DNA of 64,000 nt, taken from the sequence record MH051335.1, one strand, 5' to 3'. Below, in pieces: positions 834 through 59,854 of this stretch. Source of the DNA: Escherichia phage vB_EcoM-Ro157lw. The notes beneath the pieces were generated by a model. That model had not been told where the DNA came from. It ran no database searches and was given only the letters and a program-made list of their open reading frames with translations. How positions within the stretch are numbered: the stretch's first letter is position 1; each line of letters starts with the position of its first letter. Made by a program: the position numbers and the translations under genes.

Positions 834-852
834 CCAATTTGCACTATAAAAC

Positions 853-1888: not shown

Positions 1889-2029
1889 AATAAACTCCTA
1901 GTTTGGGAGCGGCGTTAACGACCTATTCGCTAACTCATCCCGTCCCGATATGAGTACATTATAATATAGTGTAGAAAAAAGTAAAGCACTTTTTCGATAA
2001 AAATGCGATAAATTATTTTATCTTTTTTC

Positions 2030-38772: not shown

Positions 38773-39747
38773 TTAAAAATACTCCATATCGGTGATATCA
38801 CGGAAGCACTTATACAAGGCAGAGCGCGGCACGTCAACTATGCCAAAGTTAAAGAATTTATATGTCAGATACTTGTTTCGATAATTCTCGCGATTCTCCC
38901 AAAGCATTTTTCTCTCTGCCATAGGCATTGAACCAGCGGAGACGCGGAAGGGAATCATTTCACCTTTCTCATCAACATATTTTGGATTGACAACCACAAA
39001 TGATCCAAGGTATCCTTTTGCAACTAAGCCTTCAGCCTCTTTCGAACGCTTAGTGCGACCCAGCTCATCAATGAATGCTTCGTTGTTGTTCTCCATCATC
39101 TCAACGAAGTCTATGATCAGTCCTTCTTCATCGGTCCACGGCTTGTCCTTCCACACATCACGTGACTTTGGCGTCGCGCGGCCATGCTTGTATTTGCCCG
39201 TCCAAGACTTGCCATACAAGCCTTCATAGCCAAGCTGGTCTGCTTCGATTTGCATCGCCGCGTACTGTTCCATATTTTCGATGTTTCGATATTCGAGAGC
39301 GCGAAGGAATGGGCGTCGACCATGGTTGATGAGGTGCTGATTGACTTCAGCAACTCTAGCGCGATAGTTTGCATAACGTTTTTCAAAAGGCAAATCAGGG
39401 TCGCTGAAGTCATCAAACACCCACCATGTAAAGTTAGTGATTGCATCAGTGTTCATGCATGCAGTATAGGCCTGTTGCATGACGTTCTTGTCGTTCGGAT
39501 TGCCGTCAATTAGCTCTCCATCAAGGCCGTGAATCAATTCACCCAAAAAGAGGAACTCTTTCTTGATTTGAATGTTGCGCAACGCCATGCCGGACGTGCC
39601 CATTGGCAAATTGTCATATGCCATCGCGCGTATGCCATCGACCTTGAATGACAGTCCGCAAGGCAGCGGCACATCTTCGCCGCGCTCGATGATTTGTTTA
39701 CGCTGGCACCCTTTCATTGGTTTTAATGCTTTGATTTCTCCTGCCAT
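38773..39747 (-). CDS. ATP-dependent DNA ligase (small phage type)
   Basis: Motif I KVDGIR, motif III LDGELI, EGLYGK/EGLVAK motifs; ATG at 39747 (track extends to GTG 39750). Confidence 0.65.
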   Translation of the reverse strand: MAGEIKALKPMKGCQRKQIIERGEDVPLPCGLSFKVDGIRAMAYDNLPMGTSGMALRNIQIKKEFLFLGELIHGLDGELIDGNPNDKNVMQQAYTACMNTDAITNFTWWVFDDFSDPDLPFEKRYANYRARVAEVNQHLINHGRRPFLRALEYRNIENMEQYAAMQIEADQLGYEGLYGKSWTGKYKHGRATPKSRDVWKDKPWTDEEGLIIDFVEMMENNNEAFIDELGRTKRSKEAEGLVAKGYLGSFVVVNPKYVDEKGEMIPFRVSAGSMPMAERKMLWENRENYRNKYLTYKFFNFGIVDVPRSALYKCFRDITDMEYF

Positions 39748-40340
39748 CACTCAAACTCCTTATTCATCACTTGTTCCATTGCATAGGCGTAAGCCTGATC
39801 AGTCGATTTGATAAACGTTCCGTTGTACATCACTCCTTTACGGTCCTTGATGTCTTCATAGGCGGCTTGAGCGCAATCAGACAGTCGAAGTCCATAATCA
39901 TGCGCTACGCCGGAAAGATAATCGACTGCGGCCATGATGGTGACATCAATATCCATACTCTGATTTTTAGCAATGGCGTCACCAAGCCGTCCGAGAGTCT
40001 TTGCCAAGCGAAGGATAAACGAGTGAGGGTGGGCACCTTTGTCAGCGCAACCGCCGCCGTTGATGTCTTCGATTTTTGCACCATTTTGCGCGGCAAGAAT
40101 AGTTAACACAACAAGGCAATCGCCGATGTCATCCTTGATTGCGGCTTGTAAATCACAGATGGCCTGCTCTGTATATCCGATTTCAGGGTCAAAGAACACA
40201 AGGTCATGTAATTGATCAATGTGGTCGGTCAACTCCCCAAACTCGCTAATAAGCTTCGGGTATTGGTCCTTAAGGTCGCAGCCTTGGATGATGTTACGGT
40301 CAGAAGCCCACTGGCGAATGTTTGCATAAATCTGGTTCAT
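39747..40340 (-). CDS. MazG-like nucleotide pyrophosphohydrolase (tentative)
   Basis: Acidic helical motifs ISEFGELTD and DDIGDCLVVLTILA; AAAGGA SD. Confidence 0.4.
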   Translation of the reverse strand: MNQIYANIRQWASDRNIIQGCDLKDQYPKLISEFGELTDHIDQLHDLVFFDPEIGYTEQAICDLQAAIKDDIGDCLVVLTILAAQNGAKIEDINGGGCADKGAHPHSFILRLAKTLGRLGDAIAKNQSMDIDVTIMAAVDYLSGVAHDYGLRLSDCAQAAYEDIKDRKGVMYNGTFIKSTDQAYAYAMEQVMNKEFE

Positions 40341-40912: not shown

Positions 40913-41773
40913 TTAAAACTCTTCTGCGTCGGTCGGAGTTTCATTAACAGGGCCAGCGGCACCGCTTGCTTCTTCCTGCTTGCTGCGGTCAATGTTAACG
41001 TTGCCGCCAACTACATCGTTGTGGAATGCTTTGGCGACTTCATACAGACCTTTGTCCTGCACCAGACCTTCCAGCTCAAACTTCAGAACTGACCAGGTGT
41101 TGCCATCTTTAGACTGAGACGCAGTACCCATGCGAACGATGTTCATGAAGGTCGGCGGAGTTTTCAGGCCCTGCGGAGTCTGAACTTTCTTCTGCTGCAG
41201 AGCGGTCATCAGCATGCGAGACGGCTTGATCATGGAAGAAGTCAGAGACAGCATTGCGCTACCAAATTCACCAGTTTCTTCGTTCAACAGGATCACAAAG
41301 TGGTTACGTGTATCTGCGTAGTAAGGTGATTTCTTCTCGTGCACCTTGCCGTTTTCGTCTGGCACAAACACCTTACCGTTGATTTCAACAGCGCGGCCTG
41401 CTGCGACTTCTGCATCAACGTGCTCTTTGGTGAATTCACCTTTAAAGCCTTTATCGTCGGACTCGCGACCGCCCCAAAGGATGAAGGTGCGTTTGAATGC
41501 GCAAGGGATGATCTGCACACCTTTCTTGCCGTCATACAATTCACCAGTAACGGTGTTGTACAACATACCAGCTTTTGCGCCAGGAACGTGTTTTGGATCA
41601 TCTTCGTCGACCATCGGAGACATCTTTTGCAGTACGACGATAAAAGGAATGGCATAAGCGTCGGCATCGGCACCTTCAAAGCCAGCGCCAAAATCGGTCA
41701 TGTCGACAAAATCAGCCATAGCGGACATCTGGGTGTTTTTCACTGCAACTTCGGTAGTTTCTTTCTTAGACAT
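40913..41773 (-). CDS. hypothetical protein with acidic C-terminal tail ending in Phe (SSB-like feature)
   Basis: C-terminus ETPTDAEEF. Confidence 0.4.
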   Translation of the reverse strand: MSKKETTEVAVKNTQMSAMADFVDMTDFGAGFEGADADAYAIPFIVVLQKMSPMVDEDDPKHVPGAKAGMLYNTVTGELYDGKKGVQIIPCAFKRTFILWGGRESDDKGFKGEFTKEHVDAEVAAGRAVEINGKVFVPDENGKVHEKKSPYYADTRNHFVILLNEETGEFGSAMLSLTSSMIKPSRMLMTALQQKKVQTPQGLKTPPTFMNIVRMGTASQSKDGNTWSVLKFELEGLVQDKGLYEVAKAFHNDVVGGNVNIDRSKQEEASGAAGPVNETPTDAEEF

Positions 41774-41832
41774 TTGATGTTTTCCTATAGTATCAAGTTT
41801 CGTGGCAACCTGATTTCAAGATAAAGGTTAAA

Positions 41833-42390
41833 TTACTTTTTGCTTTTAGGCAAGGTTATTTTAGCTTCTTTATACTCAAAAACGCTAATATCTTCACTAA
41901 CTGGATTACCCGCTTCCAGCTGTTCTTTTACAAATGACTTCAGTGTAGCAGAGTGAACGCCTTGTTTCAACGTGGCTTCAACACCATCTTCACGCAGCGC
42001 GGCAACAATCTCTTGCGCTTGCTCGATTTCTTCGCGACCGAACTCAGCCGTGACGCTGGACTTGATCAAGCCGCCGTAACCGTTGTTGACAAGCCAATCG
42101 AATACCTTCAATTCATTTTCTTTCTTGATTGAAGCATTGACTTTTGACTCGACCTTGATTTTGGTCTTGTCTTCAAGCTTGATTTCGGACACGCCAAGCT
42201 CATCCATGACGCCAGGAAGCAGAACAGTTTTGATTTCACTGATGCGCTGCTTTTGCATATCAGCTTCATCTTCAAGCTCTGTCAAAGCTTCTTGGCGCTC
42301 TGCCAATTCCGATACTAAGCGCGCAAGGCGCTCTTGGATGCTCTCAGGAGCGACCTGCGGCAAATCATCTTCCCAATTAATATTGCTCAT
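41833..42390 (-). CDS. hypothetical coiled-coil protein
   Basis: ORF track. Confidence 0.55.
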   Translation of the reverse strand: MSNINWEDDLPQVAPESIQERLARLVSELAERQEALTELEDEADMQKQRISEIKTVLLPGVMDELGVSEIKLEDKTKIKVESKVNASIKKENELKVFDWLVNNGYGGLIKSSVTAEFGREEIEQAQEIVAALREDGVEATLKQGVHSATLKSFVKEQLEAGNPVSEDISVFEYKEAKITLPKSKK

Positions 42391-42724: not shown

Positions 42725-44248
42725 TTAATTCATCTTTTTGCCGTCGAGGATGTGATCAGCAAGCATTGACTTCATACTGAGTGAACGCTGAATTTCTTCG
42801 TCGATGGTATCAACACCAATAAAATCAACATACAACACGCTTGATTTGGTGCCGATGCGGTGATTTCGGTCTTCGGATTGCTTGCGCAACTCGTTATCGT
42901 AGTTGCAAGAATAATAAATTGCCAAGTCGGCGGCGGTAAGCGTGATGCCGATGCCTGCCGCTGCAGCGTGGCAAACCAAGACTTGCGTTCCGCCGTTCTC
43001 GACTGTATTCTTCTGGAAGTCATCAATTAAGAACTCTCGCTGCTCTTTGGACGTTTCACCATTGTATACACCAGTGACCACGCCTTCAGACTCAAGCCAG
43101 TCCTTAATCTGGTTCATCTCTTCCTTAAAGATGGCCCAAACGATGAATTTGCGCTCTGGGTCGTCTTCCAGCACACCTTCCACATAATCCTTAAAGGCCG
43201 TGAATCGTGGGTTGTCTTCCATGTAGACCATCTCATCATACACCTTAACAAAGCCGGATGTAACCTGCTTCATCTTAGTGCGAGACGCGATCATCTCAAA
43301 CTTGACGTTTTCTTCTTCGCCCTTGTATTCCATCAAATAGTTGTACTCATTCTTGAGTTCATCGTAAACATCACGTTGTTTAGGCGACAACTCGAAGTCG
43401 ATAAACTTGTACACCTTCTCTGGAAGGTCCGGCAAGTATTCCGCTTTTGTCGCACGAAAATAGTGCGGTTCCATCAGCCGGATAAGCTTGTCAAGGTTTT
43501 TGTACATCGGTCGACCAAACTGGTCTTTGCGCGGCACTTGCGGAATCCCATAACCATTGCCGCCGATTTTCTTGAGGATGGCTTGCATCTCTGGGTCGTG
43601 CGCTTCAAGTAGCACTGTAAATTCAGAGTTAAAGGCACGGAATGATTTGGTGCCGAGCAATCCTGCTTCAAGGAAGTGGTATTGCATGTAAATATCCGCA
43701 GGCGAGCGCGGCAACGGCGTGCCAGAAAGGATTCGACGGGCCTTTGCCAGCCGTCCCAATTCCACAACCTTGATGGAGCGTTTGGCTGTGTTATTCTTGA
43801 TGCGCGTTGATTCGTCGATGATCATCAGGCAGCGGTACTTCTTCAAGACCGACTCGATGTGTTGATAACCGACTGGTGTGTTGACAGTATCGATGTTGAA
43901 TGAGAAGATGCGCGCAGGCACTTCGCCTTCGGGGTAGTGATCAGCAAACATCTTCTCCCAAAGCGCCTTGCCCTTTTTAGTTTTCATCTTATCGTTGCCG
44001 CACCAGTAGTGCCCAATCCACTTGATGGAAAGGTGCTCTGGCGCTTCACGACGAATCCAGTTTGAGTGGACCCCGTTTGGAGCGATGACGACCATGGCGT
44101 CGAAAGCGCCAGCGGTGAAGTGCTTTTCAAACTCTGCCAAAGCGGTCCAAGTTTTACCAAGACCCTGTTCCATGAAATAGGCAAAGTATTTTCTGCGGCC
44201 TGCTTTATCAAGCGCCAGAAGCTGGTGGCGCATCCCTTGTGTTTTCAT
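42725..44248 (-). CDS. SNF2-family helicase
   Basis: DExx box MIIDESTRIKN, motif III ILSGTPL, motif VI QSEDRNHRIG. Confidence 0.8.
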   Translation of the reverse strand: MKTQGMRHQLLALDKAGRRKYFAYFMEQGLGKTWTALAEFEKHFTAGAFDAMVVIAPNGVHSNWIRREAPEHLSIKWIGHYWCGNDKMKTKKGKALWEKMFADHYPEGEVPARIFSFNIDTVNTPVGYQHIESVLKKYRCLMIIDESTRIKNNTAKRSIKVVELGRLAKARRILSGTPLPRSPADIYMQYHFLEAGLLGTKSFRAFNSEFTVLLEAHDPEMQAILKKIGGNGYGIPQVPRKDQFGRPMYKNLDKLIRLMEPHYFRATKAEYLPDLPEKVYKFIDFELSPKQRDVYDELKNEYNYLMEYKGEEENVKFEMIASRTKMKQVTSGFVKVYDEMVYMEDNPRFTAFKDYVEGVLEDDPERKFIVWAIFKEEMNQIKDWLESEGVVTGVYNGETSKEQREFLIDDFQKNTVENGGTQVLVCHAAAAGIGITLTAADLAIYYSCNYDNELRKQSEDRNHRIGTKSSVLYVDFIGVDTIDEEIQRSLSMKSMLADHILDGKKMN

Positions 44249-44667
44249 GACAATTCCTCTAAATACTTGATGATGTGATGGATGGACCCGCTCGCGGCGA
44301 CCATATCCAAAATCTCACCCTTAGTATATTCTTTTAATCGCAATGAAGGGTGAACTAAATAATAAGCCTTTTCAGAATCTACCTTCAGCAGCACAAATGA
44401 CGAGAACTTCCAATCATTCCAAGAAGTCAAAAAGCTTTGTTGGCCTTTCTCAAATGCACTTTTAAAAGGAAGAGTGGTGGCCCTTGCAGGCCACGATTCA
44501 AAAAACTTCATTTCAAGCCAAAAGCCGCGCCCTTTCCGGTTGGTGCCGATTACATCCGGCACACCATCACCCGTCATGGATTCGATTCTTTGAAGCTTCA
44601 GTACTGATTCTGAATGCTTCTTCAAAGGAACGAAAATGTATTTTTGTTCACGGTTATTTGTTGCCAT
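44245..44667 (-). CDS. VRR-NUC domain nuclease
   Basis: PD-(D/E)xK-type motif GVPDVIG...WLEMK; paired with SNF2 helicase. Confidence 0.6.
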   Translation of the reverse strand: MATNNREQKYIFVPLKKHSESVLKLQRIESMTGDGVPDVIGTNRKGRGFWLEMKFFESWPARATTLPFKSAFEKGQQSFLTSWNDWKFSSFVLLKVDSEKAYYLVHPSLRLKEYTKGEILDMVAASGSIHHIIKYLEELS

Positions 44668-45310
44668 CTGGATACACCTGTTTGATCACGTCGACTATAA
44701 ACATGTCAATGCCTTCAAGCTTTCGACCTTTCATCAGGAAGAATGCACCGTTCCCGACGTTCTCTGCAATGTATTTCCCGTATTTCTGGAACTTCTCTGG
44801 ACGAATCCTGAAGCGCATTGGCGAGTCGGTCGAGTCGTCCTTGCACATAAGGTCGATGAACTGAGTTTCAAGCTTGTTTCCATACTGATCAAACTCTGCG
44901 TAGCGGCCATCGGCCTGAAGACCCTTTTTAAGCTTGCCGTGCTTTGTATAAATGCCGCGCTCAAGACGTTTACGGATGCGTGTTGCTTCGTTCTCGTCAG
45001 CCAGCACTTTCTTGGTCAACTTGCCGATTACTATTGCACGCTCGTCATCGCCGACTTCCTTCATCTGACGTATTGAAGCACCGGAAGTAACGCCAATCAG
45101 ATAGGGGTCATTATACGCCCAGCCAAACTTGGTGTGCATCTCTGTAAGGTCGCCGTATTTGACTTCAGCATTGGCCAATGCATCCTTTTGTTTTTGCGTT
45201 AAGGTTCCGGCTTCACGTGCTTCGATGTACTTCATCGCTTTCACCATTCCGTACCCTTTAGCGTTCATGATGCCGCCAATTAGCTTTCCGTTAGCGATTG
45301 GCCAATGCAT
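44654..45310 (-). pseudogene. C-terminal fragment of the DnaE-like polymerase, separated from the main ORF by a frameshifting 127-bp tandem duplication
   Basis: N-terminus repeats the last 42 aa of ORF 45291..47678 (IANGKLIGGIMNAKGYGMVKAMKYIEAREAGTLTQKQKDALAN); no usable SD at its ATG. Confidence 0.65.
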
Positions 45311-45424
45311 CCTTTTGTTTTTGCGTTAAGGTTCCGGCTTCACGTGCTTCGATGTACTTCATCGCTTTCACCATTCCGTACCCTTTAGCGTTCATGATGC
45401 CGCCAATTAGCTTTCCGTTAGCGA
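45171..45424. repeat. perfect tandem direct duplication, 2 x 127 bp (45171-45297 and 45298-45424)
   Basis: Identical copies read directly; consistent with the ORF-track break. Confidence 0.9.
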
Positions 45425-47678
45425 TGGTCCAGTTCATTGAAGAGTGATCAGGGTCGATTGGCACATAATCCACGCCTTCCTTTGCAAGTTCACGTAATAT
45501 CGCAATCGTCTGGTCTTCGTCCTTGGCAGCGCGTAAGCAAGCAGCGGCAAATTCCAACGGATAGTGTCGTTTAAGCCACAAGGTCCAGTAGGTCACGACC
45601 GCGTATGATACGGAGTGTGACTTGTTAAATCCCCATGACCCGAACGTCGCCATTGCTTGCCAAAGCTTTCTTGCATCAGCTTCCGGTACGCCGTTATTTA
45701 TTGCGCCTGCAACGAAGTCTTCGCCAAGCTTGTTAAAGTATTCCTCACCCTTACGGCCTGACATCGCCTTACGTACAGCGGATGTCTTCGCCCAGTCAAA
45801 TGAACCAATCTCTTTAACCACGGCCATGATTTGCTCTTGGTAAAGAAACACGCCGTAAGTCTCTTTTAAGTACGGCTCAAGCTGCGGCACGTCGTACTCA
45901 ATCGGCGCACGTCCTGCCGCGCGTTCGATGTATTTCTGGGCCATACCGGATGACAACGGGCCAGGTCGGCCAAGTGCTGTCAGGTTATCGATTTTGTTAA
46001 AGTTATCAACGTGCACAAAGTTGGTTACTGAGCGTACAGCGTCGCCTTCGAACTGGAAGATTCCTGACATCTTATTTTCGTTAAGGATGTCAAGGACGCT
46101 TTGATCATTGAGCTTGATTCCGTACAGTGTTTCAGCATCTATCACGCCAGTATCAGAAATGATGCCGAGGGTACGAAGGCCCAATGCATCAAGCTTCAAA
46201 AGGTTAAGGTATTCGCTGTCAGGCTTATCAATTTGTGCAATCCCTTCCGCCGTTACCGTACAGTAATCAGAGATTGGATCATTACACACGATGATTCCCG
46301 CTGCGTGAACGCCAGTGTGGGAAGGGTGAATTTCAAGGTCACCCATGCATCGCGCGGCATCAGGATATTTAGCCACAAACTCTTGGCCCGTGGTCGTTGT
46401 TGCAAAGGTGTCCTCCAGGCCGTGGCCATAACGGGCGTCACCGGATGAGTATTCAAGCAATGCGTTTTTAATGTTGGCCGTTTCGTGATATCCAATGTTG
46501 AATTTCTTACCAACCTGAGCCATTACTGAGTTGGCCTTAAGCGTGTTGATGTTGCCAAGCTTTGCAACGTTCATTTCGCCGTATTTTTCTTTAAGGTAAT
46601 CAAACACCATATAGCGTTTGGTATCCTCAAAGTCAATATCAATATCAGGAAGGTCTGCGCGGCTTACGTCAATGAATCGGGCAAACAGTAGCTTATACGG
46701 GATTGGGTCAACTTCCGTGATGCCGAGGCAATAACAAACCAGTGAACCAGCCGATGAGCCGCGAGCGGGTCCGACGAGCATTTTTGTTTTTGCGAATCGT
46801 ACAAGGTCCGCTACCACCAGAAAGTATGAGTCGAAATCTTTCAGCTGAATCTGGTGAATCTCTTCGTTGAATCGGTCCTCATATTCCTGAGTCCATTCTT
46901 TGATGTGGCCTGCCTTAAGGCGGTACTCCATCCCCTCACGAGCAAGCTTTACCATGTCACCAGCAAGGTGGATAATCGGTGCCTTGCGCAGCTTCAGGTC
47001 AAGTCCCACGATTCCGTTTGCAATGTCAACTGCATTGGCCGTTGCTTGATTCAACTCATCTTCGGTCAATATTCCTTTAAGCTGTTTGCGCAAGTCTTCC
47101 GCGTCAACGATACAGTGCGGCTTGACCGTGTCGCGCACTTCCCAAGCATAAGCAAAGTCAACGTGCTCAGGTGAAGGCATGTGGTTGTATCCGGTTAAAA
47201 CCAGCGGCCTTCCGTTGCTGCGGTGAGCCAATACCTGGCGCTTGGCCAAAAGGAACGATGATGGGTTGACGTCTATATAATCGTAGTCCTCTGGCCGCAG
47301 CAACTCCACGGCCCCGCCACAGAATTTAACGACGCCATCGAGCGCCCCGAACTCTGCACGGGTCAGTCCGCCGCGCTGTGTTGCAAGCGTGGTCGCGTTG
47401 TAAAAGGATTTCAGGTCAAGCGCCAATATCCAAGCCTTCGGTTTGAATCCCTTTTTCGGGTCCGCATCAGGGTCGATGATTGGAATTTCCATGCCGAACA
47501 TAGGCTTAATATCATTTTTCTGGCACTCCTTTTCCCATCGAACGTGACCCCATGTATTGTTATCAACTAATGCCGCGACTTCGCAGCCCAACTCTTTGAG
47601 CCGTGCTATAATTTCAGGATGCCGTCCATATACTTCTTTGAACGTGTAACCGCTGCGAACTCTCAATTGTGGAAACAT
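45291..47678 (-). CDS. dnaE: DNA polymerase III alpha-like (DnaE, C-family) catalytic subunit, interrupted at its 3' end
   Basis: Motifs GPARGSSAGSLVCYCLGITEVDP, GIFQFEG, FNKSHSVSYA; PHP-like N-terminus. Confidence 0.8.
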   Translation of the reverse strand: MFPQLRVRSGYTFKEVYGRHPEIIARLKELGCEVAALVDNNTWGHVRWEKECQKNDIKPMFGMEIPIIDPDADPKKGFKPKAWILALDLKSFYNATTLATQRGGLTRAEFGALDGVVKFCGGAVELLRPEDYDYIDVNPSSFLLAKRQVLAHRSNGRPLVLTGYNHMPSPEHVDFAYAWEVRDTVKPHCIVDAEDLRKQLKGILTEDELNQATANAVDIANGIVGLDLKLRKAPIIHLAGDMVKLAREGMEYRLKAGHIKEWTQEYEDRFNEEIHQIQLKDFDSYFLVVADLVRFAKTKMLVGPARGSSAGSLVCYCLGITEVDPIPYKLLFARFIDVSRADLPDIDIDFEDTKRYMVFDYLKEKYGEMNVAKLGNINTLKANSVMAQVGKKFNIGYHETANIKNALLEYSSGDARYGHGLEDTFATTTTGQEFVAKYPDAARCMGDLEIHPSHTGVHAAGIIVCNDPISDYCTVTAEGIAQIDKPDSEYLNLLKLDALGLRTLGIISDTGVIDAETLYGIKLNDQSVLDILNENKMSGIFQFEGDAVRSVTNFVHVDNFNKIDNLTALGRPGPLSSGMAQKYIERAAGRAPIEYDVPQLEPYLKETYGVFLYQEQIMAVVKEIGSFDWAKTSAVRKAMSGRKGEEYFNKLGEDFVAGAINNGVPEADARKLWQAMATFGSWGFNKSHSVSYAVVTYWTLWLKRHYPLEFAAACLRAAKDEDQTIAILRELAKEGVDYVPIDPDHSSMNWTIANGKLIGGIMNAKGYGMVKAMKYIEAREAGTLTQKQKDALANR

Positions 47679-48220
47679 TATTTACTCCAGATGTCATATA
47701 CGCCAATTTGTTGGCAGACTTTGTGCAGTAATATTACGTCGTCTAATGCACGGTGCTTCTGTTCATATTTTCCGAAATATAATTCATACAGCTCTTGAAG
47801 CTTAACTCTTCGGCCAAAAATAGGCAAGGTTTGCTCGACTGTACAAATGTTTATTTCTGGAAAATTAACATCACCAAGTGTAAGACCTTCGCGCTGTAAT
47901 GCATAATCAAGGATGTTCTTATCGAATGCATGGTTGTGCGCGATAGTGGCATCAGTCTTCTTGAAGATGTCTTTTAGTTGCGGAACGAAATGAATAAAGG
48001 GTGGATTGCACTCAAGGTCTTCATTGGTTAATCCGGTAATCTTTGTGATGATTTCTTCAATCACAATTTCAGGATTAATTATGAACTCGAACGTTTCAAG
48101 AATCTCTTTGCCGTCCGTCAACAGGCCTGCAAATTCAATAGGGCGCGGCTGCATCCCAAGCGGTGCTTTCGGGTGCACGGTTAATCCGGTTGTTTCGAAG
48201 TCATAAGGGAGAAATAACAC
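47678..48220 (-). CDS. DnaQ-like 3'-5' proofreading exonuclease
   Basis: Exo I YDFETTGL, Exo II AHNHAFD, Exo III HRALDD; GTG start with AGGAGG SD. Confidence 0.8.
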   Translation of the reverse strand: MLFLPYDFETTGLTVHPKAPLGMQPRPIEFAGLLTDGKEILETFEFIINPEIVIEEIITKITGLTNEDLECNPPFIHFVPQLKDIFKKTDATIAHNHAFDKNILDYALQREGLTLGDVNFPEINICTVEQTLPIFGRRVKLQELYELYFGKYEQKHRALDDVILLHKVCQQIGVYDIWSK

Positions 48221-48273
48221 ATTGGCCTCCTACAAAAGGCCGCCCATTAGGACGGCCACAGATTCAAGATTCG

Positions 48274-48825
48274 TTATGCAGTGTACGGAGTACCATCTTG
48301 ATTCAACCGCACGATGAACTTAAGGTCGACGCCGATGATTTCACGCGTATCAAAGATCACATAGTTGTAACGACGCTGACCAGCAATATTTGGGTTGGTG
48401 TGAGAGTCAGTTACAACTTCCTGCGCAACCTGAATGCCTTCTTCTTTAAAGAACTTGCGCCATTCAGCGAGTTCAGCGGCAGTCACGTGCATACCAAGAT
48501 GGCTAACCTGATTGTCGTGTGCATCAATATATTCGATGTTTTCGTTAATCCAGTTGCGACCTTTCGTGTAGTCAAGAATTTCAAGTTCAAGAGGCTTACC
48601 AGCGCCGCCATCGGTGCCGTTGCCAGCTTGATAGTTGAAGCGCAAGTCAGCTTCGTTGGTGCAATCGCCGCGCTGACCTTTAAAGTCATCAGCTTCAAAT
48701 ACGCGACCAGTAGCAACAACATGATCATGGAACCATTCTGTCAGGCCGATTTTAGCCAGAAAATCCTGTGCGCGCTGAGCATCTGGAATTGACAGGGCGA
48801 TTTGTTCAATTTTAAAGTGTGGCAT
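48274..48825 (-). CDS. VOC/glyoxalase-fold protein (tentative)
   Basis: N-terminal pattern KIEQIALSIPDAQRAQDFLAKIGL. Confidence 0.35.
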   Translation of the reverse strand: MPHFKIEQIALSIPDAQRAQDFLAKIGLTEWFHDHVVATGRVFEADDFKGQRGDCTNEADLRFNYQAGNGTDGGAGKPLELEILDYTKGRNWINENIEYIDAHDNQVSHLGMHVTAAELAEWRKFFKEEGIQVAQEVVTDSHTNPNIAGQRRYNYVIFDTREIIGVDLKFIVRLNQDGTPYTA

Positions 48826-48845
48826 TTTGTTTCCTTAATTAAATA

Positions 48846-49016
48846 TTATTGATTAATTACTGTGTTGCCTTCGATGGAATAAGTCTCAATGGAACCGACG
48901 CGCTCGTGGTTAATCTTTGCGTTTTCGATTCTTATTACTTCAAATCCAACGCCTTCTTGATCAATCTTCACTTCTGCCACGTCGCCAATCACTTCTACAA
49001 CAACTTTGATAGTCAT
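48846..49016 (-). CDS. small hypothetical protein (56 aa); below ORF-track size cutoff
   Basis: ATG 3 nt downstream of SDR stop; GGGAAA SD-like. Confidence 0.35.
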   Translation of the reverse strand: MTIKVVVEVIGDVAEVKIDQEGVGFEVIRIENAKINHERVGSIETYSIEGNTVINQ

Positions 49017-49019
49017 GAT

Positions 49020-49703
49020 TTATTTCCCAAATGGAATATCAGTACCAGACATAAAGCGCCATGCGCCCGTAATTAAGATATGGCGAATGAAGTCAGCAAT
49101 TACTTGCGGCTCAGTCTCCAATCCGTTCATCAATGCCTTTTTCTGGTATTCAGCGGCATACTCAGGAGTCCAGCCGCGAGTCGCGCAAACAGCATCTTCA
49201 ATCTGTTTGGACATGCCAGTACCACGTAGCTTGTTAGGACTAATAGAGAATACCGTGATCCCGTATTTAGGCGTAAGCTCGTGAGCCATCTGCTTGCTAA
49301 TCATAAGCGCAGCAGCCTTGGATGCATTATAACACAAGCTGGACGTCATAGGAATATGCGCAGCATTAGAAACGATATTGATCACAAAACCTTTGTTGTC
49401 GATAAGACTTTTCAGCGCGGCCTGAGTCGTGTTGACGAAAGAGAAGGCGTTGGTGTGCATAACGCGATTGAACTCTTCGTAGTTAACATCTTCGAACCAG
49501 TTGTTGGAGTTGACGCCAGCGCAGTTGATCAAGCCTTCTACGTCGTATTGAGAGAGAAGCTCTTTCATCTGTTTCGCGTTACGGATGTCATAGCCGTTCT
49601 CCAAATCAATACCGACAACTTCATGACCGTAAGCGCCAAGGGTGTCAAAAATGGATTTACCAAGACCGGAATTGCAGCCAGTTACAACAATTACTTTTTT
49701 CAT
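49020..49703 (-). CDS. short-chain dehydrogenase/reductase (SDR)
   Basis: TGxxxGxG (VTGCNSGLGKS), NCAG, YNASK catalytic motif. Confidence 0.7.
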   Translation of the reverse strand: MKKVIVVTGCNSGLGKSIFDTLGAYGHEVVGIDLENGYDIRNAKQMKELLSQYDVEGLINCAGVNSNNWFEDVNYEEFNRVMHTNAFSFVNTTQAALKSLIDNKGFVINIVSNAAHIPMTSSLCYNASKAAALMISKQMAHELTPKYGITVFSISPNKLRGTGMSKQIEDAVCATRGWTPEYAAEYQKKALMNGLETEPQVIADFIRHILITGAWRFMSGTDIPFGK

Positions 49704-49724
49704 TTATTTATCCTTTTTGGACTT

Positions 49725-49758
49725 CGTTTCGATGAGATAAATATAACTCATCGAAACG
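49725..49758 (-). promoter_or_regulatory. 12-bp perfect inverted repeat CGTTTCGATGAG / CTCATCGAAACG with 10-bp spacer in the SDR gene leader
   Basis: Direct reading; 13-mer TTCGTTTCGATGA also at 42666-42678. Confidence 0.5.
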
Positions 49759-49768
49759 CACAAGTAAA

Positions 49769-50641
49769 CTATTTATTGAAATTAATATTATGGGTGTTAA
49801 CAAGACGTTCACACATGGCGCTGTAAACACCATCATCGTGTATAGAGTCTTCGTGCTTCAGGCCGCTGATTGCGAAGCGTGTAAGCTTGACAATCTTAAG
49901 CTCGAACAGATGCCACATGTGGTAGTCTTCCGGCGTTTTCAACGTCACGCCATTAGGGAAAAGCACTTGCATAACCTGACCTACCATCACAGCGTTATCG
50001 CCATAGACAGCGTTGCGCTCACGGAAGGTTGCTGCCATTGCATCAAGAATATCGGCGGCAGTTGCCGGAGATTGTTCAACTTCCACAGCCTTAGTCTCTT
50101 CTTGCCCTGTTGCGCTTGGATCAATTGCTAATTGTTGCACCACTTCACCTGCCTTGCAAAGATTAAATGTAAAAGCGATTTTATTTTGAGCAACGGAATT
50201 ATAATACAATGCTTCATCTTGCATCCGCGCGAGTACGTCTTGTCGGTCGTCGAATACATTGATGATTCGATAATCGCCGTGCCGCAATGCGTGCGATAGC
50301 CATGCAGATTTCATAATAGTTGATGGACGTTTGTCGCCATAGTCTCTCATCTTGATTGTAAATTCATCAAAAGGAAAAACATTATCCAGACGTTCAAAAG
50401 TCACTTGTCTGTATTTTTCTGGCCTTGCAGTCCAATATTCAACCGCCTCACCGCGAAGAGATGCCGACTCTACTGCTGATGCAATGTGAGGATAGAACTG
50501 ATCATAACCAATACCGCTGTGATAGTCATCATAGTCTGACGACGGACCTGCCACCTTTATGCGGTCTAAGCGCCAACGGTCATCAAACAGCGTTCCGTCA
50601 AGGTCGAATACATTTAAGATTTCGCTGTTTTTAATGCTCAT
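49769..50641 (-). CDS. HAD-superfamily phosphatase-like protein with extra C-terminal domain
   Basis: Motif I VFDLDGTLFD and later DD motif. Confidence 0.55.
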   Translation of the reverse strand: MSIKNSEILNVFDLDGTLFDDRWRLDRIKVAGPSSDYDDYHSGIGYDQFYPHIASAVESASLRGEAVEYWTARPEKYRQVTFERLDNVFPFDEFTIKMRDYGDKRPSTIMKSAWLSHALRHGDYRIINVFDDRQDVLARMQDEALYYNSVAQNKIAFTFNLCKAGEVVQQLAIDPSATGQEETKAVEVEQSPATAADILDAMAATFRERNAVYGDNAVMVGQVMQVLFPNGVTLKTPEDYHMWHLFELKIVKLTRFAISGLKHEDSIHDDGVYSAMCERLVNTHNINFNK

Positions 50642-51468
50642 CCTTTTGATACTCCATCTTTAGCAACTGGATTGTTGGTGATTGGCATCGCACTCCAAAA
50701 CTGGATGCGCAACTCTTCTTGCTGTGCCGTGGTATCCATCCAATCACGATACCAAGGGCAATGGGCTTTGCCATGACGAGGAAACGCGCATTTACCCATA
50801 CCGATGCATTGCGGCTGTAATAATGGATTTGCCCACGGGTGCACCTTGAGGACTTCCGCAACCATTGCGCGGAATACTTCTTGATACTCGCCTTGAGTGC
50901 GCGTGCACAAGCGGTTTGACGCCATCTGCTGCAGCGTGCGCAAGTTGAACTTTGCCATGATATGCGTTTGCATATTAGAAGGCAACACGGCACGTGCATC
51001 TTGAATCTCTGCGCCAGCCGCGCGAAGCTCTTGATACAAAGCATCGATAGTCGCCATCGCATCATCCCACTTCTCTGCTAAGTATTGCTTTTGAAGTAAA
51101 GATTGGTGCTCTTCATCAGTCCCAAACGCTTCACATTGATCAATCAACTCTGGATTTTGGTGTGAGAATGCCTTCGGACGAATCGCATCAAATGCAGACG
51201 ACTCCTGAGCGCGGCTGGTACGTTCTTGATATGCGCCTGTGCGTGTGCGCACCATCTGATGGGTCATGTTCTTTGAAACATCGGTGATGTCAAAGATATA
51301 GTCCACAAAGTCAAAAGGCGACTTGATTGTATCAAGCATGTAGCGCCAGTGCTCTTGCTTCTCTGATTCCGTCATCTCAGAGACAGGCTTGCCAGTCATG
51401 CGCGTGTTCTTTGTTTCCAGCAAAAGGTCAAGTGCATCTTGGGTGTATCGAATTAATTTAACTTTCAT
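50638..51468 (-). CDS. ThyX-like flavin-dependent thymidylate synthase homolog (divergent RTR in place of RHR)
   Basis: VRTRTGAYQERTSR aligns to the ThyX RHRxxxxxxxS region. Confidence 0.5.
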   Translation of the reverse strand: MKVKLIRYTQDALDLLLETKNTRMTGKPVSEMTESEKQEHWRYMLDTIKSPFDFVDYIFDITDVSKNMTHQMVRTRTGAYQERTSRAQESSAFDAIRPKAFSHQNPELIDQCEAFGTDEEHQSLLQKQYLAEKWDDAMATIDALYQELRAAGAEIQDARAVLPSNMQTHIMAKFNLRTLQQMASNRLCTRTQGEYQEVFRAMVAEVLKVHPWANPLLQPQCIGMGKCAFPRHGKAHCPWYRDWMDTTAQQEELRIQFWSAMPITNNPVAKDGVSKG

Positions 51469-51481
51469 TTTAATTATCCTA

Positions 51482-51928: not shown

Positions 51929-51993
51929 TTTCGTTTCCTCTATGAGTTCTGCTTCAATGATTAAAGTATACGCCCATTGAAGCAGAAAGCAAA

Positions 51994-54120: not shown

Positions 54121-55305
54121 TTAACGCGCTTTCAAATCACGGTACACAGTCAGATTCTTCTTAGCGCGGGTAATAGCTGTATACATCATCTTGGCATACG
54201 GAACGCCGCGCAAGATTTCTTCCAGCACGCACACATTGTCCCACTCGCTGCCTTGAGATTTGTGCACCGTTATGACATAGCCATAGTCCATTCCTCCAAC
54301 AGCGCGTTGGGCCTCTTTGCGCACTTCCTGATCAGTAGAGAAGGAAAGAGGATTTATCTTAACCTTTATATCTTTGCCATCGGTAAGCGAGCGCAAATTT
54401 ACATACATTATTTCATTGGACTCATCTTCATCCCTTTCAAAGTCCGGTACTGGCTCATAACTAATAACAATCCCTTGCTCGCCATTACAGAATCCTGGAC
54501 CGTGTTGGTTGAATGTACAAATAACTTTCTCGCCGATTCCTGGCATTGGCGTTATACGTCCGCTCACTTGTCGCAATAATGAATTCCATTTATCTTTAGT
54601 GCTATTATATGAGCAAATAATTTGATCATCTTCGCCCATGAATTTCTTCAGTGCGGTAACGCGCGGCGATTCAGCCAACACCTTTACGTCATCGTATTCA
54701 CGCGGAGGAAGTCGGTTGCCCTGTCGCACGAAGAAGGAAGCGCGGATTATGTTGGACTCTTTTCCCTGCCGCATGATTTCGGTTAACAGTACGTCAACGG
54801 CATCTTCAGTAAAGTAGGCGGCGGCTTTTACCGGAGGGACTTGCCCAATGTCGCCTAATGCCAGCACAGGGATGCGGTGATCAAGAAGGCGCTCTGTGTC
54901 CCACTCGCCAACCATTGAAGCTTCATCAAGGACTACAAGATGCGGCTTTTCGTCCAGCTTTGACTTTCTCGAAAATATTGGCTCATTGTCGTCATTTACG
55001 CCGCGAACGTTATAGATGAACTGGTGAAGGGTCTTCGCGCCACGACACCCTTTCTGCTTCAATCGGCTGGCGGCCTTTCCGGTCGGCGCAATATAAATGG
55101 CACCGTACTCACCGACACAACGGCGCACAATCTCACGCGCAATAGAGGTTTTACCTGTTCCTGCATAGCCAGCGATGAAAAACACGCGCTTCGTCGTTTT
55201 ACCGTCCTGCAATCGCTTGTACCATGCAACGGCCTTTTCGATGGCATCAATCTGTTGCGCGTTAAACTGAATCGCTGGCTCATTATTAAATTCTGGAATG
55301 TTCAT
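54121..55305 (-). CDS. Dda/RecD-like SF1 DNA helicase
   Basis: Walker A GYAGTGKT, Walker B VVLDEASMV, VHKSQGSEWDNV. Confidence 0.75.
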   Translation of the reverse strand: MNIPEFNNEPAIQFNAQQIDAIEKAVAWYKRLQDGKTTKRVFFIAGYAGTGKTSIAREIVRRCVGEYGAIYIAPTGKAASRLKQKGCRGAKTLHQFIYNVRGVNDDNEPIFSRKSKLDEKPHLVVLDEASMVGEWDTERLLDHRIPVLALGDIGQVPPVKAAAYFTEDAVDVLLTEIMRQGKESNIIRASFFVRQGNRLPPREYDDVKVLAESPRVTALKKFMGEDDQIICSYNSTKDKWNSLLRQVSGRITPMPGIGEKVICTFNQHGPGFCNGEQGIVISYEPVPDFERDEDESNEIMYVNLRSLTDGKDIKVKINPLSFSTDQEVRKEAQRAVGGMDYGYVITVHKSQGSEWDNVCVLEEILRGVPYAKMMYTAITRAKKNLTVYRDLKAR

Positions 55306-55791: not shown

Positions 55792-56874
55792 ATGGCTAGT
55801 TTAAGAGAAGAAGCAAAAATAATCGAAGAGTTTTTGACGGAACTCCAAAGAGGCATTCCAGAAGATGAACGCGTCATGACCGTGTTTGCGCCTGAAGCAA
55901 CGGTGCAGACCGACGAGCGCGGCAAAAAGATTAACAGCAGCTTCTGGCCTAAGCCTTGGAAGCTTGGCAAGCCGCTGATGCAACATCAGAACGGTTACGC
56001 CTGCATAAGTTCAATGCGTAAGTCTCCCAACCCAAAGACAGGCGAGATGCGATACTGGCGCACGGAATCGGCTTTCGGTCATGGCATGGCGATGATGGTC
56101 GACGACATCGGACACGGTAAAGGGTCAAAGGGCGATTTAGATTTGGAGTTCTTTTTCGAGCGCCTAAAACCAACCGTCATCGTCGAGACTTCGCCGAACA
56201 ACCATCAGCTGTGGTACTTCTTTAAAGAACCGATTGACCATCTTATTCAGTTCAAAGCATTCCTTGGGTCTTTCGTAAACATGGTACTCAAGAAGGGCGG
56301 CGACAACACGATTAAAGACGTGACGCGCGTGGGCCGTGTTCCTGGGTGCATCAACAACAAGCGTGTGACTCACGACGGCCCCTATAAATATGTCGATGAG
56401 AACGGCGACCCGTTCCGCTGCCGACTTGTCCATGCAGACTATTCCTTGCGCTACACAATCGAAGAGATTTGCCAAGCCTTCGGTTTCCACGTCGTTATGC
56501 CGCAAAAGCGTGAAATTCAAATCGACGTTGACGAATACAAATATGACGCTGTTTGGTATAAGATAGCCCAGCAAATCCTTGCGCGCAATAAGATGGGCGA
56601 AGGGTCAGATGGCGATGTGGTTGAAAACATGTCAGGTAAATGTCGCATCATCTGTCCTTGGGGTGAAGAGCACACCAACGGCGACCCATACGGCGCTTAT
56701 TTTCGCGGCCCAATCCCTGGCGCTGAACATGAATTCGTTTTCGGTTGCGCTCACGACTGTCACCGGAAAGGGGAAGGCAAGAAAGGATGGACCGCTTTTG
56801 TTGAAGCAGTAGTCATGCCTTATATTGAGAATCAACTTGATATGATAAATCGTCGCGCAGGTGGCATAAAATAG
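55792..56874 (+). CDS. primase-polymerase-like replication protein with Cys/His zinc-binding C-terminus (tentative)
   Basis: Acidic VDDIG and SPNNHQLWYF motifs; CPWGEEH...CAHDCH cluster; AAGGAAAG SD. Confidence 0.4.
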   Translation: MASLREEAKIIEEFLTELQRGIPEDERVMTVFAPEATVQTDERGKKINSSFWPKPWKLGKPLMQHQNGYACISSMRKSPNPKTGEMRYWRTESAFGHGMAMMVDDIGHGKGSKGDLDLEFFFERLKPTVIVETSPNNHQLWYFFKEPIDHLIQFKAFLGSFVNMVLKKGGDNTIKDVTRVGRVPGCINNKRVTHDGPYKYVDENGDPFRCRLVHADYSLRYTIEEICQAFGFHVVMPQKREIQIDVDEYKYDAVWYKIAQQILARNKMGEGSDGDVVENMSGKCRIICPWGEEHTNGDPYGAYFRGPIPGAEHEFVFGCAHDCHRKGEGKKGWTAFVEAVVMPYIENQLDMINRRAGGIK

Positions 56875-58183: not shown

Positions 58184-59854
58184 ATGTCAATTGAACATGA
58201 CAATCTTCCAGAGGATACAGGTGATGAATTTGGTGCAATCTTTGACGAAATTCAAGACGCTGGTGTTTCAGAAGAGATGCAAGCGGCAGAGCAGCAAGGC
58301 ACCAGAGCTAAAATCAGCCTCCAGCATAAGGCTGTTGAGAAAGATGCAGAGCGCATGGAGTGCTACGGTGAAGAAGACTTGGTTGAAAGAGCACGTTTGC
58401 TCGCCTCACTTCAGGTAATCAAGTTCCCTCACTACAAACCGACGAAAGATGATTTTGTTCTTCAGGCGGACCGGACGAGTGACATGAACCGTTATGCGGT
58501 TTTCGACGCGTTGTTTGATAAGGGAAGCGGCATTGTCCCATTCCCTCACAAAGATACTTTTCGTGGACGCTTAGTCGACCATCGCGGCGAAACATTCACC
58601 GACCGGACGTTGGAAGTCACAGAGATAGTTGCCGCTGTAGACGCAGCAGGTCTGTCCAACCCAAACTCACGTCAGGTCGCTCAATCCTATAAGGAATGGG
58701 CTATGCGTTATCAGCGCGACGACCTGATGGACTTCTTCTACAAGAAGCTGCCTGAATGGGACGGTACTGCGCGCATTGAAAAATACCTTATCGAGCTATT
58801 CCGACCGTTCGATACAGAGTTAAACCGACAAATCGGTGTGTATTTTTGGCTATCGCTCTATAACCGCCTGACCAATCCTGGCTGTCAAGCGCCAATCTCC
58901 ATTGCGCTCATCGGCGGCCAGAACGCAGGGAAGAGTTATTTTAGTAAGCTGCTTTGCGAAGCTATTATGAACGACCGCCACGCAACACCGATTCCGTTGA
59001 ACTTGGCCGCGCAGAACTTCAACCCGTTCTTGCGAGCTATTACGGGTCGCTCAATTATCGCGAACGTTGGTGAGATGACAGGCTTTAAAAAGGCCGACAT
59101 CGAAAACATGAAAGCATTCCTGACTAAGACGGAAGATGACCTGGACTTCAAATTTGAAGATACGCAGGTTAAACCACGCCAGTGGATTGCTATCATGGAC
59201 GGCAACGAATACGCAGGCATGCAGCGTGACGATACGGGCAACCGTCGTGTGTATCCTATCTTTGTTGGCCAACTCGCCGACAAGGACGGGCAACCGAACT
59301 GGTCGAAAGACTTCCAAGCTGACCTTTCCACTTTGAAAGAAGACGTTTGGCAACTGATGGCTGAGTGTGCTGCGTGGATGGAGAAGCACGGCGAAGCAGG
59401 TTACAACGCGTTTGTCGGTGAAACATCTCGCATGCTTACTGAGTTCAGCAAGAACGAAATGGAACGCGCTCGCGGCGTTATCCGTGATGAGATGGTCGAC
59501 AACGACCTTGTTGAAGTCGTCATCACCGCGCCTTATGACCGACATCACAGCGGACGCTGGCACATCACCAGTGGTGCAATCGCTATGGGATTCAGAGCTA
59601 AGTGCGGCAAGTCGCCTTTCTCACGTACCCTTGCGCCGCACATGTCGAAGCTTGGATTTGAGCCTGCAACCTATCGCAACCAGCGTGGCTACTTTACGCC
59701 GCTGATTAAGAATGAAGCAGGGGAATACATTTCTGACTTGATGACTATCTTAGCGTATCTTATCCGCGACGAGTCTGACCCTGAAGATATTGAATTCTTG
59801 AAGAAGGTTATTGAACGCAAACGTTCTTTAGGAAGAGATAAGGATGAATTCTGA
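58184..59854 (+). CDS. VirE/D5-like P-loop NTPase (primase-helicase C-terminal type)
   Basis: Walker A GGQNAGKS; AGGAGG SD. Confidence 0.5.
   Translation: MSIEHDNLPEDTGDEFGAIFDEIQDAGVSEEMQAAEQQGTRAKISLQHKAVEKDAERMECYGEEDLVERARLLASLQVIKFPHYKPTKDDFVLQADRTSDMNRYAVFDALFDKGSGIVPFPHKDTFRGRLVDHRGETFTDRTLEVTEIVAAVDAAGLSNPNSRQVAQSYKEWAMRYQRDDLMDFFYKKLPEWDGTARIEKYLIELFRPFDTELNRQIGVYFWLSLYNRLTNPGCQAPISIALIGGQNAGKSYFSKLLCEAIMNDRHATPIPLNLAAQNFNPFLRAITGRSIIANVGEMTGFKKADIENMKAFLTKTEDDLDFKFEDTQVKPRQWIAIMDGNEYAGMQRDDTGNRRVYPIFVGQLADKDGQPNWSKDFQADLSTLKEDVWQLMAECAAWMEKHGEAGYNAFVGETSRMLTEFSKNEMERARGVIRDEMVDNDLVEVVITAPYDRHHSGRWHITSGAIAMGFRAKCGKSPFSRTLAPHMSKLGFEPATYRNQRGYFTPLIKNEAGEYISDLMTILAYLIRDESDPEDIEFLKKVIERKRSLGRDKDEF

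What the first reader, a model, noticed from the sequence alone, without database searches (positions are those of the whole stretch)
45291..48220. Replicase is a C-family (DnaE-like) polymerase with a separate DnaQ-like exonuclease
Most phages that encode their own polymerase use family A or B enzymes. Here the catalytic subunit has clear DnaE motifs and is followed by a stand-alone epsilon-like proofreading exonuclease, with Dda-like and SNF2 helicases, ligase and a VirE-like NTPase nearby. This is a less common replication-module architecture.
Basis: partly seen in the sequence, partly recalled or inferred. Interest (0 to 1): 0.4.

Follow-up and report, generated by a model that had tools for sequence, protein, structure and literature searches.

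The report
Known phage DnaE-type polymerase plus proofreading exonuclease
This E. coli phage (genus Wifcevirus) does copy its DNA with a bacterial-type (family C, DnaE-like) polymerase and a separate proofreading exonuclease, but the pair is already annotated in about 360 related phage genomes, and in this sequence the polymerase gene is cut short by a perfect 127-base duplication that is most likely an assembly artefact.

Summary
ORF 47678..45291 (-) is a family C, DnaE-type polymerase (Pfam DNA_pol3_alpha 2e-63, finger 1e-37; PDB DnaE about 1e-84). ORF 48220..47678 (-) is a complete DEDDh, epsilon-like 3'-5' exonuclease. The ligase, SNF2, Dda-like and VapE/VirE-like neighbours are real too.

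Three corrections:
- The window is a Wifcevirus (95.8% nt identity to FEC19/WFH). The exonuclease-polymerase pair is annotated as Pol III epsilon/alpha in these records and in PB1-like Pseudomonas phages. It is not new.
- The exonuclease lies upstream of the polymerase and is translationally coupled to it (TAATG). It does not follow it.
- The 795-aa ORF is truncated. A perfect 127-bp tandem duplication (45170-45296 / 45297-45423) shifts the frame. Removing one copy restores a 965-aa ORF ending at 44654, 964 of 966 aligned positions identical to phage Mansfield's.

All seven relatives checked carry one copy of the 127-bp unit. 127 is SPAdes's largest default k-mer, and window base 1 matches base 1 of the WFH and Mansfield records. 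The source record was therefore probably re-opened with an untrimmed contig overlap.

The intact enzyme has a degenerate PHP domain, palm, thumb, fingers, a helical domain and a C-terminal OB fold. It has no tau-binding domain and no canonical clamp-binding motif.

The parts
47678..48220 (-). Stand-alone DEDDh (DnaQ/epsilon-like) 3'-5' exonuclease, 180 aa, GTG start. Catalytic residues D7 and E9 (DFETTG), D99 (HNHAFD), H156 and D161 (HRALDD).
   Evidence: Pfam RNase_T 3e-21. PHROG 192 1e-37. Alignments to E. coli DnaQ and to the Thermotoga PolC exonuclease domain 2p1j. Homologues in 362 phage records.
48226..48231 (-). AGGAGG ribosome-binding site 5 nt upstream of the exonuclease GTG start.
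   Evidence: Read directly from the sequence. It supports the long start, which keeps the ExoI motif.
48234..48257 (-). Terminator-like hairpin (GGCCGTCC-TAAT-GGGCGGCC followed by TTTT) between the glyoxalase-like gene and the exonuclease.
   Evidence: Read from the sequence. A terminator is annotated at the matching place in phage Mansfield.
47676..47688 (-). Coupling junction: GGAG (47688-47685), then TAATG, in which the exonuclease stop (47680-47678) and the polymerase ATG (47678-47676) share one base.
   Evidence: Read from the sequence.
45291..47678 (-). DnaE-like polymerase ORF as it stands in the window: 795 aa, truncated. It holds a degenerate PHP domain (about 1-235), then palm, thumb and fingers, with catalytic D345 and D347 (PDIDIDF) and D497 (LKLDALG).
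45297..45423 (.). Copy 2 of the perfect 127-bp tandem duplication. The gene reads this copy first, in the correct frame.
   Evidence: the repeat finder and TRF: 100% identity, period 127.
45170..45296 (.). Copy 1 of the perfect 127-bp tandem duplication. The upstream ORF reads it out of frame and stops after one codon. ORF2 reads it in the correct frame.
   Evidence: The duplication junction is absent from IMG/VR while the wild-type junction is present in 4 contigs. Each of 7 relatives has a single copy.
44654..45310 (-). 218-aa ORF that is the displaced C-terminal part of the polymerase (residues about 752-965 of the intact protein): a helical domain plus an OB fold.
44654..47678 (-). Full extent of the dnaE-like gene. 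With one 127-bp copy removed it is 2898 nt, 965 aa.
   Evidence: The reconstruction gives one ORF, identical to phage Mansfield's at 964 of 966 aligned positions and 99.9% identical to FEC19's.
42725..44667 (-). Two-ORF helicase directly downstream: a 140-aa ORF (44245-44667, PHROG 2165) and a 507-aa SNF2/UvsW-like helicase (42725-44248).
38773..39750 (-). ATP-dependent DNA ligase.
   Evidence: PHROG 114 5e-42. Weak Pfam ligase hits. Annotated in relatives.
54121..55305 (-). Dda/RecD-like SF1 helicase.
   Evidence: Pfam AAA_30 1e-22 and UvrD_C_2 3e-13. PHROG 325 3e-100.
55792..56874 (+). RepB-type primase.
   Evidence: Pfam RepB_primase 1.6e-36. PHROG 4861.
58184..59854 (+). VapE/VirE-like NTPase, the candidate replicative helicase.
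   Evidence: Pfam VapE-like_dom 1.6e-28. PHROG 4630 and PHROG 256.

Best explanation
The region encodes the two-subunit replicase of a Wifcevirus, a lytic E. coli myophage related to the PB1-like Pseudomonas phages. The catalytic subunit is DnaE-like. In its intact form it is 965 aa, with a degenerate and probably non-catalytic PHP domain, a Pol-beta-like palm with three catalytic aspartates, thumb, fingers, a helical domain and a C-terminal OB fold. A 180-aa DEDDh exonuclease homologous to Pol III epsilon is translated just ahead of it from an overlapping stop/start (TAATG). It presumably supplies 3'-5' proofreading. By analogy with the E. coli alpha-epsilon core it may sit on the PHP domain. 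The pair would work with the phage's own RepB-type primase, VapE-like helicase, ligase and accessory helicases. In this particular sequence the polymerase gene is interrupted by a perfect 127-bp tandem duplication. The most likely cause is a SPAdes k=127 end overlap that was left in when a circular contig was re-opened at the conventional genome start. If so, the real phage has the intact 965-aa gene. Shown: family, domains, catalytic residues, gene order, conservation of the pair, and the duplication with its effect on the frame. Inferred: the physical alpha-epsilon complex, the roles at the fork, and the artefactual origin of the duplication.
Against: No reads or assembly metadata are available, so the artefact origin of the duplication remains an inference; a real, very recent duplication would look the same. 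The exonuclease lacks the C-terminal tail through which E. coli epsilon binds alpha, so a physical complex is unproven. No biochemical characterisation of this phage polymerase family turned up in the literature searches.
Confidence: 0.85

Rival explanations
1. The 127-bp duplication is real in this isolate. The phage is then either a defective or variant genome, or it works with a split polymerase: a 795-aa catalytic core plus a separately made C-terminal OB fragment.
For: The sequence as given contains the duplication. An ATG-initiated 218-aa ORF covers the missing C-terminus. Two bases of microhomology (AT) flank the repeat, as replication slippage can produce.
Against: The copies are 100% identical, while relatives differ from the window's unit at up to 9 of 127 positions. 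The length is exactly SPAdes's largest default k-mer. The record was evidently re-opened. None of 27 records with at least 99% amino-acid identity, and no IMG/VR contig, has the junction. The ORF2 ATG has AAAGG directly against it, with no spacer. All 60 aligned homologues are single chains.
Confidence: 0.1
2. The polymerase is an error-prone DnaE2/ImuC-type or a PolC-type enzyme rather than a replicative DnaE-type one.
For: Like DnaE2, it lacks a tau-binding C-terminal domain. It reaches no DnaE1 equivalog cut-off. Some GenBank records label the adjacent exonuclease 'polC'.
Against: The DnaE1 model scores 494 bits, against 331 for DnaE2 and 44 for PolC. PolC carries its exonuclease inside the PHP domain, whereas here it is a separate gene. 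It is the only polymerase annotated in the fully annotated relative Bas99. It is paired with a proofreader.
Confidence: 0.04
3. The gene is a recent capture of the host dnaE and dnaQ, not a long-standing phage lineage.
For: The host E. coli has both genes, and the family is bacterial in origin.
Against: Identity to E. coli DnaE is only 33% over the core, and to DnaQ only 25%. Across one genome for each of 185,579 bacterial and archaeal species, chromosomal DnaE homologues reach only about 33-36% over the core. There is no match in 5,426 E. coli genomes at the DNA level. The pair is shared at 56-58% amino-acid identity with Pseudomonas PB1-like phages.
Confidence: 0.01

Closest known systems
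DNA polymerase III alpha-like and epsilon-like gene pair of other Wifcevirus phages (FEC19, WFH, WFC, ECML-117, Mansfield, BASEL Bas98-101)
   Same: Same genes in the same order, with 93-96% nucleotide identity. The polymerase is 99.9% and the exonuclease 99.4% identical in protein sequence to FEC19's. They are annotated as DNA polymerase III alpha and epsilon or as DNA polymerase and exonuclease subunit.
   Different: Only this window carries the 127-bp tandem duplication that splits the polymerase ORF.
PB1-like phages of Pseudomonas aeruginosa (Pbunavirus): Pol III alpha/epsilon homologues within a ligase, helicase, polymerase, ThyX and primase module
   Same: The exonuclease is directly upstream of the polymerase. 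Identity is about 58% for the polymerase and 56-57% for the exonuclease. The surrounding module is the same, as described in PMC3008698 and PMC12390725.
   Different: Different host and GC content. The Pbunavirus polymerase gene spans about 150 nt more than the query.
E. coli Pol III core (alpha = DnaE, epsilon = DnaQ; PDB 2hnh, 5fku, 4gx8)
   Same: Same fold through PHP, palm, thumb, fingers and OB. The catalytic Asp triad is conserved. The PHP domain is inactive, and the DEDDh proofreader is a separate polypeptide.
   Different: Only 33% and 25% identity. The phage alpha is 195 aa shorter, with no tau-binding C-terminal domain and no QADMF-type clamp motif. The phage exonuclease (180 aa) lacks epsilon's C-terminal alpha-binding tail and clamp motif. 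No theta, clamp or clamp loader is annotated in the phage.
DnaE-like polymerases of actinobacteriophages (Mycobacterium, Gordonia, Streptomyces phages) and PolC-like enzymes of SPbeta-type Bacillus phages
   Same: They are also family C polymerases encoded by phages (PMC11348598).
   Different: They are only 26-38% identical, and usually only over the core (residues about 245-780). The homologous exonuclease appears only in records of phages of Gram-negative hosts, chiefly Pseudomonas and Escherichia.

Membership tests
Family C DNA polymerase, DnaE type | Pol-beta-like nucleotidyltransferase palm with three catalytic aspartates (E. coli D401, D403, D555) | tested here: met
   D345 and D347 in PDIDIDF and D497 in LKLDALG align with the E. 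coli residues. They are invariant in 60 homologues. Pfam DNA_pol3_alpha 2e-63.
Family C DNA polymerase, DnaE type | Fingers domain of Pol III alpha | tested here: met
   Pfam DNA_pol3_finger 1.2e-37. The Foldseek alignment to full-length DnaE structures has TM 0.73.
Family C DNA polymerase, DnaE type | N-terminal PHP domain | tested here: met
   The Pfam PHP match is only just above the cut-off (27.0 against 26.4 bits). The fold matches the PHP part of alpha-epsilon chimeras and RNase AM. Canonical metal-binding histidines are replaced (R6, R8, N40/N41), so the domain is present but probably inactive.
Family C DNA polymerase, DnaE type | C-terminal OB fold after the fingers and helical domains | tested here: met
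Family C DNA polymerase, DnaE type | Score above a curated NCBIfam cut-off | tested here: met
   The superfamily model TIGR00594 scores 473.9 against a cut-off of 434.35.
Bacterial replicative DnaE1 (Pol III alpha equivalog) | Equivalog-level score, tau-binding C-terminal domain and beta-clamp-binding motif | tested here: not met
   The best equivalog model, PRK05673, scores 494 bits against a cut-off of 1002. The protein ends at the OB fold. No QxxLF, QLxLxL or QxxLxF motif is present.
PolC-type family C polymerase | DEDDh exonuclease inserted in the PHP domain of the same chain; PolC HMM match | tested here: not met
   The exonuclease is a separate ORF. The PolC models score only 41-45 bits against cut-offs of 873 and 1043.
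DnaE2 / ImuC error-prone polymerase | Best match to the DnaE2 subfamily model | tested here: not met
   NF004225 scores 331 bits against a cut-off of 939, below the DnaE1 models.
DnaQ/epsilon-type DEDDh 3'-5' exonuclease | ExoI (DxE), ExoII (D) and ExoIII (H-x4-D) catalytic residues | tested here: met
   D7 and E9, D99, and H156 and D161 are seen in alignments to E. coli DnaQ and to 2p1j. Pfam RNase_T 3e-21.
Pol III epsilon subunit proper | C-terminal segment that binds the alpha PHP domain, and a clamp-binding motif | tested here: not met
   The protein is 180 aa and ends with the exonuclease domain, whereas E. coli DnaQ is 243 aa. The alignment stops at about DnaQ residue 174. No NCBIfam epsilon model reaches its cut-off.
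Pol III epsilon subunit proper | Physical complex with the polymerase subunit | not testable with these tools
   Only indirect support: translational coupling and near 1:1 co-occurrence with adjacency in about 360 phage genomes.
Genus Wifcevirus | High nucleotide identity and collinearity with the genus members WFC and WFH | tested here: met
   95.8% identity over 5 kb to WFH and FEC19. The window is collinear with Bas99 at 84-95% over nearly its whole length. The window start coincides with the WFH record start.

The most novel reading that the evidence does not exclude
The Wifcevirus/Pbunavirus alpha-epsilon pair may be a self-sufficient, clamp-independent minimal family C replicase. It has no tau-binding domain and no canonical clamp-binding motif. 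The exonuclease lacks epsilon's tether, so it would have to dock in a different way. No clamp or clamp loader is annotated in the genome. [quoted passage not shown] Nothing here tests whether it uses the host beta clamp.
Probability: 0.25. Interest if true: 0.5.

Novelty: already known. Interest (0 to 1): 0.15.

Why it matters
For biology it matters little, because this is a correct re-identification of a replication module already annotated in GenBank and described in papers on PB1-like phages. It matters more for data quality. The polymerase gene in this record is broken by what is very probably an untrimmed 127-bp assembly overlap. An automatic annotator would then call a truncated polymerase plus a spurious extra gene. 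The domain analysis also records that this phage DnaE clade is a trimmed enzyme, with no tau-binding domain and no recognisable clamp motif. No biochemical characterisation of it turned up in the literature searches run here.

Tried and rejected
- I looked for the exact truncated 795-aa protein and the exact SNF2 protein in the 153-billion-gene index, hoping to find the source contig. Neither is on record.
- I searched IMG/VR for the duplication junction and found no hits. The control search with the wild-type junction gave 4 hits.
- I searched E. coli genomes for the region as a prophage or host gene and found no match.
- A regular-expression search for canonical beta-clamp-binding motifs in the polymerase returned none. 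This is weak negative evidence, because such motifs are degenerate.
- I considered a programmed frameshift or an intein/intron at the ORF break. I rejected both because the break is an exact tandem repeat and relatives have a continuous ORF.
NCBIfam model scores, fold ranking and identity levels served in its place.
- I did not use the search of protein representatives, because its library carries no names and would not have settled the subfamily.
Full report
**What is at the coordinates.** On the minus strand there are two abutting ORFs, 48220..47678 (180 aa, GTG start) and 47678..45291 (795 aa).
- The 795-aa protein matches Pfam DNA_pol3_alpha (2.2e-63), DNA_pol3_finger (1.2e-37) and, just above the cut-off, PHP.
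- It also matches PHROG 405 'DNA polymerase' (5.8e-267) and the solved DnaE structures of Thermus, E. coli and Mycobacterium (about 1e-84 to 1e-78).
- The 180-aa protein matches Pfam RNase_T (3e-21) and PHROG 192 'DNA polymerase exonuclease subunit' (1.2e-37).
A RepB-type primase (55792-56874) and ThyX (50638-51468) are there as well.

**Source of the window.** The region is 95.8% identical in DNA to Escherichia phages FEC19 and WFH, and 92.8-95.4% identical to the other listed members of the genus Wifcevirus, such as ECML-117, Mansfield and BASEL Bas98/99. The window is collinear with Bas99 over nearly its whole length. In those records the two genes are already annotated. Mansfield calls them 'DNA polymerase III alpha' and 'DNA polymerase III epsilon'. 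Bas99 calls them 'DNA polymerase' and 'DNA polymerase exonuclease subunit'.

**Correction 1: gene order.** Both genes are on the minus strand, so the exonuclease comes first. Its TAA stop shares a base with the polymerase ATG (TAATG), and a GGAG lies 6 nt upstream of that ATG. This arrangement suggests translational coupling. The exonuclease GTG is preceded by AGGAGG and by a terminator-like hairpin. The shorter start used in the Bas99 annotation would delete the ExoI motif, so the GTG start is the better call.

**Correction 2: the polymerase ORF is truncated by a duplication.**
- Relatives have a single 2898-nt (965-aa) gene.
- In the window, a perfect 127-bp tandem duplication occupies 45170-45296 and 45297-45423 (100% identity, period 127).
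- Because 127 = 3 x 42 + 1, the frame shifts after residue 794 and the ORF stops one codon later.
- The remaining C-terminal part appears as a separate 218-aa ORF (45310..44654), which matches positions 857-1073 of PHROG 405.
- Deleting one copy restores a 965-aa ORF. It is identical to phage Mansfield's at 964 of 966 aligned positions and 99.9% identical to FEC19's.

**Why the duplication is most likely an assembly artefact.**
- All seven fetched relatives have exactly one copy of the unit. Their copies differ from the window's at 0-9 positions, whereas the window's two copies are identical.
- The copy-copy junction is absent from IMG/VR, while the normal junction is present in 4 contigs.
- The truncated protein is not on record anywhere.
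- It is the only long perfect repeat in the window.
- 127 is the largest default SPAdes k-mer. [quoted passage not shown]
- Window base 1 aligns with base 1 of the WFH, ECP_WGS_SA1 and Mansfield records, where Mansfield annotates a direct terminal repeat predicted by PhageTerm. The source sequence was therefore re-opened after assembly, which is exactly how an untrimmed end overlap becomes an internal tandem repeat.

I put about 85-90% on the artefact and about 10% on a real, very recent duplication. Only reads or PCR can decide.

**Anatomy of the intact polymerase.**
- The catalytic triad is present. D345 and D347 (PDIDIDF) and D497 (LKLDALG) align with E. coli D401, D403 and D555, and the GSxAGS loop is conserved. 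These residues are invariant in 60 homologues.
- The PHP domain is degenerate. The canonical H-x-H is R6-x-R8 (E. coli has R10-x-H12), and the histidine of the TDHG motif is missing. R6 and R8 are nearly invariant in the family. A PHP-based proofreading activity is therefore unlikely, which fits the need for a separate exonuclease.
- An AlphaFold2 model of a 99%-identical homologue (pLDDT 86.8, pTM 0.81) is most similar to full-length DnaE structures: M. tuberculosis DnaE1 7pu7 at E 1e-49 and TM 0.73, then Thermus and E. coli. PolC scores 1e-27.
- The chain ends there, so there is no tau-binding domain. No canonical clamp-binding motif was found.
- No sliding clamp or clamp loader is annotated in the complete Bas99 genome.

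**Classification.** NCBIfam places the protein above the cut-off only for the superfamily model TIGR00594 (473.9 against 434.35). The best equivalog model is DnaE1 PRK05673 (494 bits, cut-off 1002), followed by DnaE2 (331 bits) and PolC (about 44 bits). It is therefore a DnaE-type family C polymerase, but not an equivalog of any bacterial subfamily. It is not a recent host capture:
- 33% identity to E. coli DnaE over the core;
- about 33-36% to chromosomal DnaE across one genome for each of 185,579 bacterial and archaeal species;
- no DNA match in 5,426 E. coli genomes.

**The exonuclease.** All DEDDh residues are present: D7 and E9, D99, H156 and D161. At 180 aa it lacks the C-terminal extension by which E. 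coli epsilon (243 aa) binds alpha, so how it binds the phage polymerase, or whether it does, is unknown.

**How widespread and how well known the pair is.** tblastn finds homologues of the polymerase in 1376 of 50,697 phage records. Of these, 376 are full-length, mostly Pseudomonas PB1-like phages at about 58% identity. The exonuclease is found in 362 records, 360 of them full-length. It lies directly upstream of the polymerase wherever I checked: FEC19, CEB_DP1, TropicalSun and a Logan contig.

**Likely mechanism (inferred).** The two translationally coupled products probably form a minimal Pol III-core-like replicase, with alpha synthesising and the DEDDh subunit proofreading. Primers would come from the RepB-type primase and unwinding from the VapE-like NTPase. 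Okazaki fragments would be sealed by the ligase. The Dda-like and SNF2/UvsW-like helicases would act as accessory motors, and ThyX would supply dTMP. Whether the enzyme uses the host beta clamp is open.

**Verdict.** The observation and its interpretation are essentially correct, but the feature is already known and annotated. The only thing particular to this window is a probable assembly artefact that truncates the gene. Interest is low.

Noticed in passing
window 45170-45423: A perfect 127-bp tandem duplication sits inside the polymerase gene. Its length equals SPAdes's largest default k-mer, so it is probably an untrimmed circular-contig overlap in a re-opened record. It creates a truncated polymerase ORF and a spurious 218-aa ORF.
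   Followed up: yes
window 48274-52989 (-): A run of metabolic-looking genes sits between the exonuclease and the Dda-like helicase. They are a glyoxalase-like protein (48274-48825), a FabG-like short-chain dehydrogenase (49020-49703), a PNKP-type HAD phosphatase (49769-50641), ThyX (50638-51468) and a 331-aa protein that the Mansfield annotation likens to UDP-galactopyranose mutase (51994-52989). They might be a nucleotide or DNA-modification pathway. BASEL reports considerable resistance of these phages to restriction (PMC11990801).
   Followed up: no
proteins P0115 (1232 aa) and P0094 (1215 aa), homologues: Two metagenomic homologues of this phage DnaE are 250-270 aa longer than the rest. 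P0115 carries a Pfam intein-splicing domain (PF14890), so it appears to carry an intein; P0094 has no such hit on record.
   Followed up: no
window 48155-48220; Bas99 locus L002 15552-16028: The Bas99 GenBank annotation starts the exonuclease at an internal Met (477 nt), which would remove the ExoI residues D7 and E9. The GTG at 48220, with an AGGAGG ribosome-binding site, is the better start.
   Followed up: partly
window 1878-2018 / 2395-2532, and 53533-53622 / 53633-53721: There is an imperfect inverted repeat of about 140 bp (79% identity) near the left end. There is also an imperfect direct repeat of about 90 bp (77%) inside the 281-aa ORF of unknown function at 53122-53967.
   Followed up: no
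window 1-1500: Window base 1 coincides with base 1 of the WFH, ECP_WGS_SA1 and Mansfield records. WFH, ECP_WGS_SA1, WFC and SP13 each match this stretch at two places, as expected of a terminal repeat, and Mansfield annotates a direct terminal repeat predicted by PhageTerm. The window therefore starts at the physical left end of the genome.
   Followed up: partly
window 40913-42390 (-): Two conserved proteins of unknown function with recent Pfam families named after cyanophage Pam3 (Pam3_Gp34 at 4e-86 and DUF7307/Pam3 gp33-like at 3e-37) lie between the SNF2 helicase and the spanin genes.
   Followed up: no
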